Assembly: GCF_009914755.1 (NCBI RefSeq)
Contig: NC_060935.1
Origin: the human T2T-CHM13v2.0 reference genome, Homo sapiens
Length of the DNA: 64,000 nt
Reading direction: 5' to 3' (one strand)
Each line of letters begins with the position of its first letter. The first letter of the stretch is position 1. The notes under the pieces are model-generated. The model was given only the letters and a program-made list of their open reading frames with translations. It was not told the origin of the DNA and ran no database searches. Shown here in pieces: positions 121 through 61,899 of the stretch. A program made the position numbers and the translations under genes.

Positions 121-162
121 GAGAATGTAAGCATCCTGAAGATAAGAATTTTTGCCTGTTTT
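121..162 (+). mobile_element. L2 LINE 3' end, left part (continues at 7148-7240); target of the first L1 insertion
   Basis: Joining 121-163 to 7168-7240 rebuilds an L2 3' terminus-like sequence: gaatgtaagcatcctgaagataagaatttttgcctgttttg|ttcactgccatgtcc...gcctgg...ctcaaatagctattgaatg. Confidence 0.55.
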
Positions 163-602
163 GACACTTCTCAAAAGAAGACATTTATGCAGCCAAAAAA
201 CACATGAAAAAATGCTCATCATCACTGGCCATCAGAGAAATGCAAATCAAAACCACAATGAGATACCATCTCACACCAGTTAGAATGGCAGTCATTAAAA
301 AGTCAGGAAACAACAGGTGCTGGAGAGGATGTGGAGAAATAGGAACACTTTTACACTGTTGGTGGGACTATAAGTAGTTCAACCATTGTAGAAGACAGTG
401 TGACGATTCCTCAGGGATCTAGAACTAGAAATACCATTTGACCCAGCCATCCCATTACTGGGTATGTACCCAAAGGATTATAAATCATGCTGCTATAAAG
501 ACACATGCACACATATGTTTATTGTGGCAGTATTCACAATAGCAAAGACTTGGAACCAAGCCAAATGTCCAACAATGATAGACTGGATTAAGAAAATGTG
601 GC
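163..602 (+). mobile_element. Host L1 A (5'-truncated, L1PA4-like), upstream part: end of ORF2
   Basis: Collinear with 5923-6363 of the inner L1. Preceded by a 20-bp TSD aagaatttttgcctgttttg (144-163), repeated at 7148-7167 with 1 mismatch. Confidence 0.93.
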
Positions 603-610
603 GGTTAAGA

Positions 611-1643
611 GGAGGATAGTCGAGATGGCCGAATAGGAACAGCTCCGGTCTACAGCTTCCAGCGTGAGCGACGCAAAAGACGGTTGATTTCTGCATTTCC
701 ATCTGAGGTACTGGGTTCATCTCACTAGGGAGTGCCAGACAGTGGGCATAGGACAGTGGGTGCAGCGCACCGTGCACGAGCCGAAGCAGGGCGAGGCATT
801 GCCTCACTCGGGAAGCGCAAGGGGTCAGGGAGTTCCCTTTCCTAGTCAAAGAAAGGGGTGACAGACGGCACCTGGAAAATCGGGTCACTCCCACCCTAAT
901 ACTGCGCTTTTCCGACGGGCTTAAAAAACGGCGCACCACAAGATTATATCCCGCACCTGGCTCGGAGGGTCCTAGCCCACGGAGTCTCACTGATTGCTAG
1001 CACAGCAGTCTGAGATCAAACTGCAAGGCGGCAGTTAGGCTGGGGAAGGGGCGCCTGCCATTTCCGAGGCTTGCTTAGGTAAACAAAGCAGCAGGTAAGC
1101 TCGAACTGGGTGGAACCCACCACGGTTCAAGGAGGCCTGCCTGCTTCTGTAGGCTCCACCTCTGGGGGCAGGGCACAGACAAACAAAAAGACGCAGTAAC
1201 CTCTGCAGACTTAAATGTCCCTGTCTGACAGCTTTGAAGAGAGCAGTGGTTCTCCCAGCACGCAGCTGGAGATCTGAGAACGGGCAGACTGCCTCCTCAA
1301 GTGGGTCCCTGACCCCTGACCCCCGAGCAGCCTAACTGGGAGGCACCCCCAAGTAGGGGCAGACTGATACTTCACACGGCCGGGTACTCCTCTGAGACAA
1401 AACTTCCAGAGGAACGATCAGACAGCAACGTTCACGGTTCACAAAAATCCGCTGTTCTGCAGCCACCGCTGCTGTTACCCAGGCAAACAGGGTCTGGAGT
1501 GCACCTCTAGCAAACTCCAACAGACCTGCAGCTGAGGGTCCTGTCTGTTAGAAGGAAAACTAACAAACAGAAAGGACATCCACACCAAAAACCCATCTGT
1601 ACATCACCATCATCAAAGACCAGAAGTAGATAAAACCACAAAG
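611..1643 (+). promoter_or_regulatory. L1 5'UTR internal promoter (sense and antisense); YY1 motif altered
   Basis: Matches the L1PA 5'UTR. The CAAGATGGCC motif reads CGAGATGGCC (621-630). ORF0 ATG at 1061(-) is closed by TAA after 8 codons. Confidence 0.8.
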
Positions 1644-2660
1644 ATGGGGAAAAAACAGAGCAGAAAAACTGGAAACTCTAAAAAGCAGAACGCCTCTCCT
1701 CCTCCAAAGGAACTCAGCTCCTCACTAGCAATGGAACAAAGCTGGACGGAGAATGACTTTGACGAGTTGAGAGAAGAAGGCTTCAGACAATGAAACTACT
1801 CTGAGCTACAGGAAGAAATTCAAACCAAAGGCAAAGAAGTTGAAAACTTTGAAAAAAATTTAGACGAATGTATAACTAGAATAACCAATACAGAGAAGTG
1901 CTTAAAGGAGCTGATGGAGCTGAAAGCCAAGGCTCGAGAACTACGTGAAGAATGCAGAAGCCTTAGGAGCTGATGCGATCAACTGGAAGAAAGGGTATCA
2001 GTGATGGAAGATGAAATGAATGAACTGAAGCGAGAAGGGAAGTTTAGAGAAAAGAGAATAACAAGAAACGAACAAAGCCTCCAAGAAATATGGGACTATG
2101 TGAAAAGACCAAATCTGCGTCTGATTGGTGTACCTGAAAGTGACGGGGAGAATGGAACCAAGTTGGAAAACACTCTGCAGGATATTATCTAGGAGAACTT
2201 CCCCAATCTAGCAAGGTAGGCCAACATTCAGATTCAGGAAATACAGAGAACGCCACAAAGATACTCCTCGAGAAGAGCAACTCCAAGACACATAATTGTC
2301 AGATTCACCAAAGTTGAAATGAAGGAAAAAATGTTAAGGGCAGCCAGAGAGAAAGGTCGGGTTACCCACAAAGGGAAGCCCATCAGACTAACAGCGGATC
2401 TCTCAGCAGAAACTCTACAAGCCAGAAGAGAGTGGGGGCCAATATTCAACATTCTTAAAGAAAAGAATTTTCAACCCAGAATTTCATATCCATCCAAACT
2501 AAGCTTCATAAGTGAAGGAGAAATAAAATACTTTACAGACAAGCAAATGCTGAGAGATTTTGTCACCACCAGGCCTGCCCTAAAAGAGCTCCTGAAGGAA
2601 GCACTAAACATGGAAAGGAACAACCGGTACCAGCCCCTGCAAAATCATGCCAAATTGTAA
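1644..2660 (+). pseudogene. L1 ORF1p, disrupted
   Basis: 1017 nt, collinear with intact ORF1 at 56090-57106, but with several in-frame stops. The ORF track shows only fragments (2001-2192, 2319-2660). Confidence 0.92.
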
Positions 2661-60100: not shown

Positions 60101-60499
60101 GAAGAAAACCTAGGCATTACCATTCAGGACATAGGCGTGGGCAAGGACTTCATGTCCAAAACACCAAAAGCAATGGCAACAAAAGCCAAAATTGACAAAT
60201 GGGATCTAATTAAACTCAAGAGCTTCTGCACAGCAAAAGAAACTACCATCAGAGTGAACAGGCAACCTACAACCTGGGAGAAAATTTTCGCAACCTACTC
60301 ATCTGACAAAGGGCTAATATCCAGAATCTACAATGAACTCAAACAAATTTACAAGAAAAAAACAAACAACCCCATCAAAAAGTGGGCAAAGGACATGAAC
60401 AGACACTTCTCAAAAGAAGACATTTATGCAGCCAAAAAATACATGAAAAAATGCTCATCATCACTGGCCATCAGAGAAATGCAAATCAAAACACTATGA
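57170..60499 (+). CDS. L1 ORF2p truncated at 1109 aa (EN and RT open, C-terminal Cys-rich domain lost)
   Basis: Open frame through EN and the FADD RT motif. 1-nt deletion near 60492 (aaaacactatg). The remaining C-terminus lies in frame 60382-60954 and also ends early (TAA at 60952-60954). Confidence 0.88.
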
Positions 60500-61215
60500 G
60501 ATACCATCTCACACCAGTTAGAATGGCAATCATTAAAAAGTCAGGAAACAGCAGGTGCTGGAGAGGATGTGGAGAAATAGGAACACTTTTACACTGTTGG
60601 TGGGACTGTAAACTAGTACAACCATTGTGGAAGTCAGTGTGGCGATTCCTCAGGGATCTAGAACTAGAAATACCATTTGACCCAGCCATCCCATTACTGG
60701 GTATATACCCAAAGGACTATAAATCATGCTGCTATAAAGACACATGCACACGTATGTTTATTGTGGCATTATTCACAATAGCAAAGACTTGGAACCGACC
60801 CAAATGTCCAACAATGATAGACTGGATGAAGAAAATGTGGCACATATACACCATGGAATACTATGCAGCCATAAAAAAGGATGAGTTCATGTCCTTTCTA
60901 GGGACATGGATGAAATTGGAAACCATCATTCTCAGTAAACTATCGCAAGAATAAAAAACCGAACACCGCATATTCTCACTCATAGGTGGGAATTGAACAA
61001 TGAGATCACATGGTCACAGGAAGGGGAATATCACACTCTGTGGACTGTGGTGGGGTGGGGGGAGGGGGGAGGGGTAGCATTGGGAGATATACCTAATGCT
61101 AGATGACGAGTTAGTGGGTGCAGCACACCAGCATGGCACATGTATACATATGTAACTAACCTGCGCAATGTGCACATGTACCCTAAAACTTAAAGTATAA
61201 TTAAAAAAAAAAAAA

Positions 61216-61595
61216 AAGAAAATGTGGCACATATACACCATGGAATACTGTGCAGCCGTAAAAAATGATGAGTTCATGTCCTTTGTAGGGACATGGATGA
61301 AGCTGGAAACCAGTCTCAGCAAACTATCGCCAGGACAAAAAACAAAACACCGCATGTTCTCACTCATAGGTGGGAATTAAACAATGAGAACACATGGACA
61401 CAGGAAGGGGAACATCACACACCAGGGCCTGTTGTGGAATAGGGGGACGGGGGAGGGAATAGCATTAGGAGATATGCCTAATGTTAAATGACGAGTTAAT
61501 GGGTGCAGCACACCAACATGGCACATGTATACATATGTAACAAACCTGCACGTTGTGCACATGTACCTTAAAACTTAAAGTATAATTAAAAAAAA
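61216..61595 (+). mobile_element. Host L1 B, downstream part (L1PA4/5-like 3' end and polyA)
   Basis: Resumes at the duplicated aagaaaatgtggcacata. Older-type 3'UTR (gaagctggaaacc, gttaaatgac, aacaaacc). Followed by the outer TSD. Confidence 0.92.
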
Positions 61596-61899
61596 AAGAA
61601 AAGGGGAAAAATCTAGGAAAGTCTAGTCGAGGGTAGCAAAAAATCCATCTGTGTCAACTGGCAGATAGAGTAAAAAAAATAAATCCAATAAAAAAATAAC
61701 ATTTTTATGTAATGAGACATGCCATTGAGTCAAGAGAGAAACTTTTTCCAAAGACGAAACAAGGAGAAATTTATTCCGTTTTGTAAGATTTGTTGAGTAG
61801 TATAGTGGACGGCATCGTTTAATAGCAATTTTACAAATAATAGAGACATTTTTATCATATATTTACATCAAATCTTGGTAAAAAGTTTTTTGAAGAGCT

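What the first reader, a model, noticed from the sequence alone, without database searches (positions are those of the whole stretch)
144..61613. Two independent full-length L1s inserted into older L1s at exactly the same nucleotide (recurrent L1-into-L1 target site)
Seen: composite A is outer TSD (144-163), host L1, TSD aagaaaatgtggc (590-602), full-length L1 (603-6754), TSD (6755-6767), rest of host, outer TSD (7148-7167). Composite B is outer TSD (54444-54461), 5'-inverted host, TSD aagaaaatgtggcacata (55166-55183), full-length L1 (55184-61215), TSD (61216-61233), rest of host, outer TSD (61596-61613). The first-strand nick is at the same base in both, GACTGGATT^AAGAAAATGTGG (bottom strand TCTT/AA), about 380 bp from the host 3' end and in the same orientation as the host. 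The events are independent: inner TSDs differ (13 vs 18 bp), as do the 5' junctions, outer TSDs, host structures and inner subfamilies (long vs short 5'UTR). Known: L1 EN prefers TTTT/AA. Host A also offers a perfect TT^AAAA at ~295-300, and both hosts have A-rich tails, so this site was not the only one available. Inference: a strong sequence- or structure-defined self-targeting site inside L1, possibly aided by pairing of incoming L1 RNA with homologous host DNA. That would amount to homing-like integration of L1 into its own relics. Nested-TE hotspots in general have been reported; I cannot check whether this position is among them.
Basis: partly seen in the sequence, partly recalled or inferred. 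Interest (0 to 1): 0.9.

Follow-up and report, generated by a model that had tools for sequence, protein, structure and literature searches.

The report
Recurrent L1-into-L1 insertion hotspot
Two full-length L1 retrotransposons sit at the very same nucleotide of two older L1 fragments because that spot is a genome-wide insertion hotspot, and L1 itself seems to use it far more often than Alu does.

Summary
Two full-length L1s (6152 and 6032 bp, 96.0% identical, different L1PA clades) lie inside two older, unrelated L1 3' fragments. Both sit at the nick GGATT^AAGAAAATG, with inner TSDs of 13 and 18 bp and separate outer TSDs.

It is not a local oddity. In the whole T2T genome the junction A9+GAAAATGTGGCAC occurs 77 times, against 18,159 intact sites. 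Full-length L1 5' ends abut the site at 14 independent loci, against 1 at the perfect TT^AAAAA site of the same L1 region.

Alu and other retrocopies also use the nick. Total use per intact copy (0.42%) is no higher than at the perfect site (0.63%). So this is an ordinary endonuclease/TPRT hotspot, not L1-only homing.

L1 is nevertheless strongly over-represented: L1 41 to Alu 18 here, against 5 to 53 at four other A-rich sites. Some of the L1 hits are offspring that carried the host tail as a 3' transduction.

Regional RNA-DNA homology does not explain the bias, because a site 44 bp away shows none. The cause is open.

The parts
144..163 (+). Composite A, outer TSD, 5' copy
   Evidence: AAGAATTTTTGCCTGTTTTG against 7148-7167, 19 of 20 identical.
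164..602 (+). Host A, 5' part (L1 positions 5219-5658 on the inner-B scale). Contains a perfect TT^AAAAA site at 291-300 and ends with inner TSD copy 590-602.
   Evidence: blastn, 95.7% to inner B.
603..6754 (+). Inner full-length L1 A (6152 bp; long 5'UTR with a 128-bp segment absent from B; ORFs broken; tail (TAA)n AAATT repeats then A8)
6755..7147 (+). Host A, 3' part (L1 5646-6032 plus tail). Begins with inner TSD copy 6755-6767.
   Evidence: 88.9% to inner B.
7148..7167 (+). Composite A, outer TSD, 3' copy
54444..54461 (+). Composite B, outer TSD, 5' copy (AAGAAAAGGGGAAAAATC)
   Evidence: 18 of 18 with 61596-61613.
54462..55098 (-). Host B, inverted 5' segment (L1 3966-4610 in reverse), a twin-priming-type 5' inversion
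   Evidence: blastn, 95.7%.
55097..55183 (+). Host B, direct segment (L1 5577-5663). Ends with inner TSD copy 55166-55183.
55184..61215 (+). Inner full-length L1 B (6032 bp; short 5'UTR; ORF1 338 aa open; ORF2 broken after 1109 aa; tail TAATT A15)
   Evidence: Pfam Transposase_22, Exo_endo_phos, RVT_1.
61216..61595 (+). Host B, 3' part (L1 5646-6032 plus tail). Begins with inner TSD copy 61216-61233.
   Evidence: 88.4% to inner B.
61596..61613 (+). Composite B, outer TSD, 3' copy

Best explanation
Each composite is an old, 5'-truncated (A) or 5'-inverted (B) L1PA fragment. Each was later hit by an ordinary endonuclease-dependent, target-primed insertion of a younger full-length L1. The two later events are independent.

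They coincide because GGATT^AAGAAAATG (bottom strand 5'-TTTTCTT/AA) is a near-consensus L1 endonuclease nick followed by an A-rich run. It lies in the most abundant part of L1, with more than 18,000 perfectly intact copies. Every L1-mobilised RNA uses it again and again: shown here for L1 and Alu, and for other, unidentified poly(A)-tailed sequences and poly(A)-only stubs.

On top of this, L1 RNAs use the nick roughly 5-25 times more often than Alu usage predicts. This part is inferred from counts. I take it as real but mechanistically unresolved.

My preferred reading, which is inference only, is a nucleotide-level priming or tethering advantage of L1-derived RNA at the flap 5'-...GTGCCACATTTTCTT-3'. 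I prefer that to regional homology. Nested full-length L1s at this site were themselves active. They exported the host's last 386 bp as a 3' transduction, and that inflates the junction count.
For: Structure and independence.

Recurrence: A9+GAAAATGTGGCAC gives 77 hits and its reversed control gives 0. The intact 24-mer occurs 18,159 times.

Mixed users: of the 65 of 77 hits listed with context, 41 are L1, 18 are Alu and 6 are other or unknown. In the first 30 loci, all 9 Alus have host 5' parts ending at L1 5657-5663.

Full-length L1 5' junctions directly after the site: 30 matches, which make 14 loci, all with different junction sequences. 9 of them pair with a junction 5.5-6.8 kb downstream. 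L005 is a further full-length case missed by the exact anchor, and L007 is a 5'-truncated nested case.

Comparators in the same L1 region:
- C1 (TT^AAAAAG): 58 hits against 9,192 intact copies. Of the first 30, 26 are Alu, 3 L1 and 1 other. One full-length L1 junction.
- C2 (AT^AAAAAAKG): 24 hits, which are 20 Alu rows (17 distinct events), 1 L1 and 3 other.
- C6: 7 hits, 6 Alu and 1 L1.
- TT^AGAATGG: 4 of 4 Alu.
- CT^AGAAGAAAACC: 0 hits.

Statistics: Fisher test of 41:18 against 5:53 gives p = 5e-12. Within hosts at least 87% identical to inner B, 14:4 against 2:14 gives p = 2e-4. Using only the 10 proven nested L1s against 20 Alus still gives p = 0.006.

Published baseline: 6,698 L1-in-L1 against 104,308 Alu-in-L1 exact nestings (Levy 2010, PMC2836564, Table 1, passage read).

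Transduction offspring: L010 is a twin-primed copy of L1-poly(A)-5646..6032. L003 carries its own TSD around the whole unit. L002 lies in an Alu linker, and L021 is a stub.
Against: Only five comparator sites were tested. They hold few L1 events (5 in all).

Insert classes were read by eye from 46-70 nt of context plus blastn against two references taken from the window. No repeat library was available.

All patterns require exact 13-27-mers and a pure A run, so absolute numbers are lower bounds, and decay may differ between insert classes.

At least 5 of the 16 L1-type hits among the first 30 loci are transduction offspring rather than nested events.

C1 hosts are older on average (median 84.4% against about 89%). 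In hosts below 87% there is no L1 excess (1:5 against 2:16).

Per intact copy, the site is used less overall than the perfect consensus site (0.42% against 0.63%), so part of the 'L1 bias' could instead be an Alu deficit.

No experiment or de novo insertion dataset was examined.
Confidence: 0.75

Rival explanations
1. Endonuclease motif and copy number alone. The two window events coincide by chance at a good, very abundant nick site. The apparent L1 bias is an artefact of transduction offspring, host-age differences, exact-match ascertainment and small comparators.
For: Overall use per copy is 0.42% against 0.63% at the perfect site. Alu and other inserts share the nick. At least 5 L1-type hits are offspring carrying the junction internally. 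C1 hosts are older. There is no L1 excess in hosts below 87%.
Against: Full-length L1 5' junctions abutting the host 5' part cannot be offspring, and they number 14 loci against 1. That gives binomial p = 0.018 when scaled by site copies and 5e-7 when scaled by Alu use. The bias persists in age-matched hosts (p = 2e-4) and with proven nested cases only (p = 0.006).
Confidence: 0.2
2. Homology-guided homing. Incoming L1 RNA pairs with the homologous old L1 DNA and steers integration into it.
For: The excess is L1-specific and in the same orientation as the host. L1 inserts at the site come from several L1PA clades, so the property is general to L1.
Against: Regional homology is equal at C2 (44 bp away), C1, C6 and TT^AGAATGG in the same hosts, yet those sites show 5 L1 to 53 Alu and 1 full-length junction. 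No known TPRT step pairs the L1 body with the target (recalled knowledge). The L003 composite landed at T^AAAGAAAATGTTA in DNA that blastn does not recognise as L1. That points to the motif rather than the host.
Confidence: 0.1
3. Tail-templated priming chain. An L1 already nested at this site makes transcripts that run past its short A-tail into AAGAAAAUG.... That stretch pairs perfectly with the imperfect flap TTTTCTT at other copies of the site, so offspring land there again.
For: Nested L1s at the site were active sources (L002, L003, L010, L021). Two tails hold a site-like motif before the last A run: A13 GAATG A13 and A9 GAAAATAC A13. The tails at C8:40715137 and C23:97129213 are clearly homologous. 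Monot 2013 (PMC3649969, Discussion passage) suggests that templated imperfect tails could match degenerate endonuclease sites.
Against: The inserts span several L1PA clades. The window's own tails carry no G. Window A and L007 share a tail motif but no private body variants. Shared tails are equally explained by 3' transduction offspring. In the two motif-bearing tails, priming took place in the terminal A run, not on the motif.
Confidence: 0.12
4. Alu deficit rather than L1 excess. Alu, mobilised in trans, needs a longer perfect T-tract primer than L1 RNA held in cis, so imperfect flaps favour L1.
For: Estimated Alu use is 0.12% per copy here against 0.55% at C1 (T5 flap), while L1 use is 0.27% against 0.06%. 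Non-Alu, non-L1 inserts are also relatively common at the site (6 of 65 against 2-4 of 65 at comparators).
Against: TT^AGAATGG, also an imperfect flap, has 0 L1 of 4 (p = 0.009 if the L1 share were as at the focal site). L1 use at the focal site is above that at the perfect site in absolute terms. Rescued de novo Alu inserts show the same TTTT/AA consensus as L1 (Wagstaff 2012, PMC3415434, passages).
Confidence: 0.15
5. The composites are copies of one ancestral nested unit (segmental duplication or retrotransposition of the whole composite), or an assembly artefact.
For: Both inner L1s share a rare T>G at their own copy of the site (308 against 18,159 genome copies).
Against: The outer TSDs, inner TSD lengths, 5' junctions and host architectures all differ. 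The hosts are 8% diverged and the inners 4%. Each 5' junction string occurs once in the genome. The inner L1s sit in different clades and share only 1 private variant.
Confidence: 0.02

Closest known systems
Position-specific hotspots of nested transposable-element insertions (Levy, Schwartz and Ast 2010, PMC2836564; abstract and passages read)
   Same: Insertions into an older TE pile up at particular consensus positions, often at L1 endonuclease-like TT|AAAA sites. L1-in-L1 and Alu-in-L1 nestings are catalogued there.
   Different: The passages I read name Alu hotspots in MER5A1, MLT1C, L1MB3 and MER45A, and in Alu itself, but not this L1PA position. They report no site where L1 and Alu usage diverge. 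The paper's supplementary tables could not be opened and may list the position.
L1 endonuclease consensus TTTT/AA and the snap-velcro priming model (Monot et al. 2013, PMC3649969; abstract and passages read)
   Same: The nick TTCTT/AA is one step from the consensus. The flap TTTTCTT has 6 T among its last 7 nt, which fits an extendable imperfect T-tract.
   Different: The model predicts the same site preference for any polyadenylated template. It does not predict an L1-over-Alu bias at one site.
Site-specific non-LTR retrotransposons such as R2 or R1 (recalled knowledge, not tested here)
   Same: Repeated integration at one nucleotide of a repeated host sequence.
   Different: Those elements have a sequence-specific nuclease, and nearly all their copies sit at the target. 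In the one count made here, the 14 full-length L1s at this site stand beside at least 18,159 other L1 copies in which it is uninterrupted. The nick is shared with Alu.
L1 3' transduction and twin priming (recalled: Moran 1999; Ostertag and Kazazian 2001)
   Same: L003, L002, L021 and L010 carry the host's last 386 bp behind the L1 tail as a transduced segment. L010 and host B show 5' inversions.
   Different: Here the transduced segment is itself an L1 3' end. The offspring therefore look like L1s with a duplicated 3' end and mimic nested insertions.
Polymorphic chr11 tandem L1 array (bioRxiv 10.64898/2026.05.14.725010; passages read)
   Same: It is the same locus as the 17-unit, 5,633-bp-period array found.
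   Different: The passages I read do not say that the units are joined at this hotspot (...AAGAAAATGTGGC|GAAGGAGGAGCC). That junction suggests the array grew from a nested L1-in-L1 by unequal exchange.

Membership tests
Canonical endonuclease-dependent L1 retrotransposition (TPRT) insertion | Target-site duplication of about 7-20 bp flanking the insert | tested here: met
   Inner TSDs of 13 and 18 bp, both exact; outer TSDs of 20 bp (1 mismatch) and 18 bp.
Canonical endonuclease-dependent L1 retrotransposition (TPRT) insertion | 3' poly(A) tail abutting the 3' TSD copy | tested here: met
   A8 after AAATT repeats (A) and A15 (B) directly before AAGAAAATG.
Canonical endonuclease-dependent L1 retrotransposition (TPRT) insertion | Nick at a TTTT/AA-like site on the bottom strand | tested here: met
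   Bottom strand 5'-TTTTCTT/AATCC, one mismatch from the consensus. The consensus itself is recalled, and is quoted in the Levy 2010 and Wagstaff 2012 passages.
Canonical endonuclease-dependent L1 retrotransposition (TPRT) insertion | The insert is an L1: 5'UTR, ORF1p, and ORF2p with EN and RT domains | tested here: met
   Pfam hits on inner B: Transposase_22, Tnp_22_trimer and Tnp_22_dsRBD; Exo_endo_phos and RVT_1. Inner A is 96% identical to B over its full length.
Nested-TE insertion hotspot (sense of Levy 2010) | Insertions concentrated at one position of the target TE beyond a background that allows for 5' truncation | tested here: inconclusive
   77 junctions here against 58, 24, 7, 4 and 0 at five other A-rich sites within 1.2 kb of the L1 3' end. 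Only two sites were normalised by intact copies (0.42% and 0.63%). No full positional background was built.
Site-specific (homing) non-LTR retrotransposon | Most copies of the element occupy the one target sequence | tested here: not met
   14 full-length loci lie at the site. L1 3' ends with an uninterrupted site number 18,159, and L1 inserts also occur at C1, C2 and C6.
Site-specific (homing) non-LTR retrotransposon | The target is used by the element itself, not shared with elements mobilised in trans | tested here: not met
   18 of the 65 listed hits are Alu. Retrocopy-like and poly(A)-only inserts are present too.
Homology (RNA-DNA pairing)-guided integration | Enrichment follows homology between insert and target rather than a short motif | tested here: not met
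   No L1 excess at four other sites in the same homologous hosts. The direct test, the same motif outside L1, could not be run.
Twin-priming 5' inversion (host B) | Inverted 5' segment and direct 3' segment of one L1 inside a single TSD pair | tested here: met
   Inverted L1 4610-3966 next to direct 5577-6032, bounded by the 18-bp outer TSD. A 966-bp internal gap lies between the two segments.

The most novel reading that the evidence does not exclude
L1 target choice has an RNA-sequence component. L1-derived RNA is drawn to, or primed better at, the flap 5'-GTGCCACATTTTCTT-3'. The responsible sequence would be either L1's own internal AAGAAAAUGUGG segment or a short 3' flank inherited from a parent already nested there. 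On this reading L1 preferentially re-enters one nucleotide of its own relics, a weak, RNA-guided form of homing in an element held to be non-specific. It also seeds secondary structures such as 3'-duplicated L1 lineages and the chr11 tandem array.
Probability: 0.2. Interest if true: 0.85.

Novelty: new variant of a known kind. Interest (0 to 1): 0.6.

Why it matters
L1 and Alu are thought to share one integration machinery and one target preference. A single, highly repeated nucleotide position where their usage differs by an order of magnitude would be a natural experiment. It offers more than 18,000 identical targets for separating endonuclease choice from priming and template effects in TPRT. 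It would also bear on cis against trans mobilisation.

The practical consequences are as follows:
- Nested L1-in-L1 at this site creates direct repeats that can expand, as the chr11 array shows.
- It creates L1 lineages with duplicated 3' ends.
- It produces junctions that confuse repeat annotation and insertion callers in L1-rich DNA.

If the bias proves to be an artefact, the finding reduces to a textbook endonuclease hotspot.

Tried and rejected
1. Unit copy or segmental duplication of the composites. Rejected: the TSDs, junctions and hosts differ, and each 5' junction string is unique in the genome.

2. RT template switching from L1 position 5646 to a second poly(A) as the origin of the window structures. 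Rejected: the host 5' parts with 13- and 18-bp duplications, and hosts older than the inserts, need a true nested insertion.

3. A single prolific transduction family behind all L1-type hits. Rejected: the 386-bp pieces differ by 3-6% from their nearest neighbour and their tails differ. Several families do exist.

4. The rare ATG variant as a marker of a homing lineage. Rejected: none of the 12 other L1 inserts at the site whose own copy could be found (of 16 searched) carries ATG there. One further ATG case turned up by coordinates, at C6:102598298.

5. Window A and L007 as siblings, suggested by a shared AAATTAAAT tail motif. Not supported: they share no private body variants, and their pairing in the tree has weak support (81/53).

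6. Fetching 8.6 kb around all 77 hits to score nesting. Only L092-L095 could be fetched.

8. The supplements of Levy 2010 could not be read.

9. Literature searches and passages of PMC2836564, PMC7026601, PMC2912911, PMC3649969 and PMC3415434 gave no report of this position or of an L1/Alu split at one site. Subscription papers are not covered.

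
Full report
1. THE OBSERVATION

Reading the four junction regions and extracting the claimed strings confirms every coordinate.

Composite A:
- outer TSD 144-163 / 7148-7167 (19 of 20 identical)
- host 5' part 164-602
- inner TSD AAGAAAATGTGGC at 590-602 and 6755-6767
- full-length L1 603-6754
- host 3' part up to 7147

Composite B:
- outer TSD 54444-54461 / 61596-61613 (18 of 18)
- an inverted host segment, then a short direct one
- inner TSD AAGAAAATGTGGCACATA at 55166-55183 and 61216-61233
- full-length L1 55184-61215
- host 3' part up to 61595

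blastn against inner B puts host A at L1 positions 5219-5658 plus 5646-6032. It puts host B at inverted 4610-3966 plus 5577-5663 plus 5646-6032. Both duplications therefore begin at position 5646, at GGATT^AAGAAAATG. Because the A-tail merges with the AA of AAG, the nick could lie up to 2 nt further 3', equally in both composites.

Pfam finds the three L1 ORF1p domains in an open 338-aa ORF1 of inner B. It finds Exo_endo_phos plus RVT_1 in a 1109-aa ORF2 piece. Inner A has only broken frames.

2. INDEPENDENCE

The inner elements are 96.0% identical, with 24 gap openings. One of these is a 128-bp 5'UTR segment present only in A. In a tree with 21 other L1 3' regions they fall in different clades.

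The two host 3' parts are 91.8% identical to each other and 88.9-92.1% identical to the inner 3' ends. The hosts are therefore older than the inserts and unrelated to each other.

Each of the two 5' junction strings occurs once in the genome. Copying of one composite, or a duplication, is excluded at the sequence level.

3. GENOME-WIDE RECURRENCE

The window's assembly could be searched by pattern.

The 3' junction signature A9+GAAAATGTGGCAC has 77 exact matches, and its reversed control has 0. The intact 24-mer GACTGGATTAAGAAAATGTGGCAC has 18,159. Composite A has only A8 and is not among the 77.

I listed 65 of the 77 with 46 nt of context; the pattern's first letter excludes hits with G at that place. 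I read 41 as L1, 18 as Alu (several with the AluYb8 signature, which I recall rather than tested) and 6 as other or unknown. Seven of the 41 were assigned with help, because the printed context showed only the tail or transduced sequence.

In the first 30 loci, all 9 Alus have a host 5' part ending at L1 5657-5663. That means TSDs of 12-18 bp starting at the same nick. L018 is an unidentified 430-bp poly(A)-tailed insert carrying an AATAAA signal, nested in the same way. L006 and L012 are poly(A)-only or 4-nt Alu stubs.

A second, independent signature is GGATTAAGAAAATG, a gap of 10-40 nt, then the L1 5' end. It has 30 matches, which make 14 loci: 13 single loci plus one 17-copy tandem array. 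Each locus has a different junction. 9 of the 14 pair with a junction 5.5-6.8 kb downstream.

Fetching upstream DNA for three more cases gave:
- L005 is a further full-length nested L1 that the exact anchor missed.
- L007 is a 5'-truncated nested L1 in a 5'-inverted host.
- L003 is not nested (see section 5).

4. IS THE SITE HOTTER THAN ITS MOTIF PREDICTS, AND IS IT L1-SPECIFIC?

I used the same rule at other A-rich sites of the L1 3' region: seven extra A's in front of the next 13 nt.

| Site | Hits | Breakdown |
|---|---|---|
| C1, perfect TT^AAAAAG (the site at window 291-300) | 58, against 9,192 intact 27-mers | first 30: 26 Alu, 3 L1, 1 other |
| C2, AT^AAAAAAKG, 44 bp 3' of the focal site | 24 | 20 Alu rows (17 distinct events after removing duplicated copies), 1 L1, 3 other |
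| C6, TC^AAAACC | 7 | 6 Alu, 1 L1 |
| TT^AGAATGG | 4 | all Alu |
| CT^AGAAGAAAACC | 0 | none |

Overall use per intact copy is 0.42% at the focal site and 0.63% at C1. The site as such is not hotter than a perfect endonuclease site.

By class the picture splits:
- Estimated Alu use is 0.12% at the focal site against 0.55% at C1.
- Estimated L1 use is 0.27% against 0.06%.
- Full-length L1 5' junctions number 14 loci against 1.

Tests:
- Fisher test of 41:18 against 5:53 gives p = 5e-12.
- In hosts at least 87% identical to inner B over the same 365 bp, the ratio is 14:4 against 2:14, p = 2e-4. Alignments under 200 bp were dropped, which left 28 of 30 rows in each set.
- In older hosts there is no difference (1:5 against 2:16).
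- Using only the 10 L1s proven to be nested against 20 Alus still gives p = 0.006.

The published genome-wide ratio of exact nestings is 6,698 L1-in-L1 to 104,308 Alu-in-L1 (Levy 2010, Table 1, passage read). That is close to my comparators and far from the focal site.

5. WHAT INFLATES THE L1 COUNT

Some L1-type hits are not nested.
- L010 has the layout expected of a twin-primed copy of an RNA reading L1...6030-poly(A)-5646...6032.
- L003 is a full-length L1 plus tail plus the 386-bp piece, and the whole unit is bounded by its own 13-bp TSD.
- L002 is such a unit inside an Alu linker.
- L021 is a 25-nt L1 stub plus the piece.
- L001 also lacks a host 5' part.

So full-length L1s nested at this site were active. 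Their read-through transcripts ended at the host's poly(A) signal and spread the junction as a 3' transduction.

The 386-bp pieces are 3-6% from their nearest neighbour, so several sources are involved.

6. MECHANISM

Shown: these are canonical TPRT insertions at a near-consensus nick shared by all L1-mobilised RNAs.

Inferred: there is an additional L1-specific factor.

The same hosts offer equal homology at C2, C1, C6 and TT^AGAATGG, and none of these shows an L1 excess.

An imperfect T-tract alone does not fit well either: TT^AGAATGG has 0 L1 of 4 (p = 0.009).

The inserts come from several L1PA clades, so this is not one lineage with an altered nuclease.

Two nucleotide-level ideas remain:
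- A pairing advantage of L1-derived RNA with the flap ...GTGCCACATTTTCTT-3'. Monot 2013 raises, in theory, that templated imperfect tails may match degenerate sites (passage). Two tails here contain a site-like motif.
- A specific weakness of Alu at this flap.

I could not separate these two ideas.

7. KNOWN OR NEW

Hotspots of nested insertions and the endonuclease consensus are known (Levy 2010; Monot 2013; Wagstaff 2012 passages).

My searches and the passages I read found no mention of this L1PA position, nor of a site where L1 and Alu usage diverge. Levy's supplementary tables were unreadable and may contain the position. Subscription papers were not searched.

8. VERDICT

- The coincidence is explained by a genome-wide hotspot.
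- 'Homing' is not shown.
- The L1-over-Alu bias is the interesting residue. It rests on few comparators and on classification by eye, and it needs a proper census.

Noticed in passing
G000:C11:94155396-94245574 (L095 = C11:94160900-94166800): A tandem array of 17 L1 units with a 5,633-bp period. Each unit is L1 positions 4-5658, with no tail and no last 374 bp. The units are joined head to tail exactly at the hotspot (...GGATTAAGAAAATGTGGC|GAAGGAGGAGCC). This looks like unequal exchange within a nested L1-in-L1. The array itself is described as polymorphic in bioRxiv 10.64898/2026.05.14.725010 (passages read). I did not see the junction discussed there.
   Followed up: partly
window 6342-6365 (inner A) and 60820-60843 (inner B): Both inner L1s carry T>G at their own copy of the site (GGATGAAG, Ile to Met), which removes the TT^AA nick. 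The variant 24-mer has 308 genome copies against 18,159 for the usual one. The two elements nevertheless lie in different clades and share only this one private variant. Among the first 100 variant copies listed, 14 neighbouring pairs lie within 100 kb of each other. This was noticed post hoc and is unexplained.
   Followed up: partly
L003 / L092 (G000:C1:114315300-114323329): A full-length L1, its tail and the 386-bp L1 3' piece were inserted as one unit. The unit's own TSD is AAAGAAAATGTTA, in DNA that blastn does not recognise as L1. The target therefore again reads T^AAGAAAATGT. It may be chance, or a very old L1 relic.
   Followed up: partly
L006, L012, L068: Extreme 5' truncations at these hotspots: poly(A)-only (L006) or 4-5 nt of Alu 3' end plus A19-A28 (L012, L068), each between TSD copies.
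   Followed up: no
L081, L083, L084 (chr11 49.18, 89.75, 89.93 Mb) and L088, L091 (X and Y, about 1.5 Mb): The same Alu-in-L1 event at site C2 is present in three copies on chr11, and in two copies on C23 and C24 (the pseudoautosomal region, by my reading of the coordinates). These are duplicated segments, not separate insertions. I counted each once.
   Followed up: no
window 54457-55183: Host B's 5' inversion leaves a 966-bp internal gap between the inverted (3966-4610) and direct (5577 onward) L1 segments. That is larger than the small overlaps or deletions I recall for twin priming.
   Followed up: no
window 948-1127 and 54868-56040: The RefSeq 'silencer' and 'enhancer' features given by the hub fall in the 5'UTR of inner A, and in host B plus the 5'UTR of inner B. 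Both composites lie in sense orientation in a PDE3B intron. Nothing here was tested.
   Followed up: no
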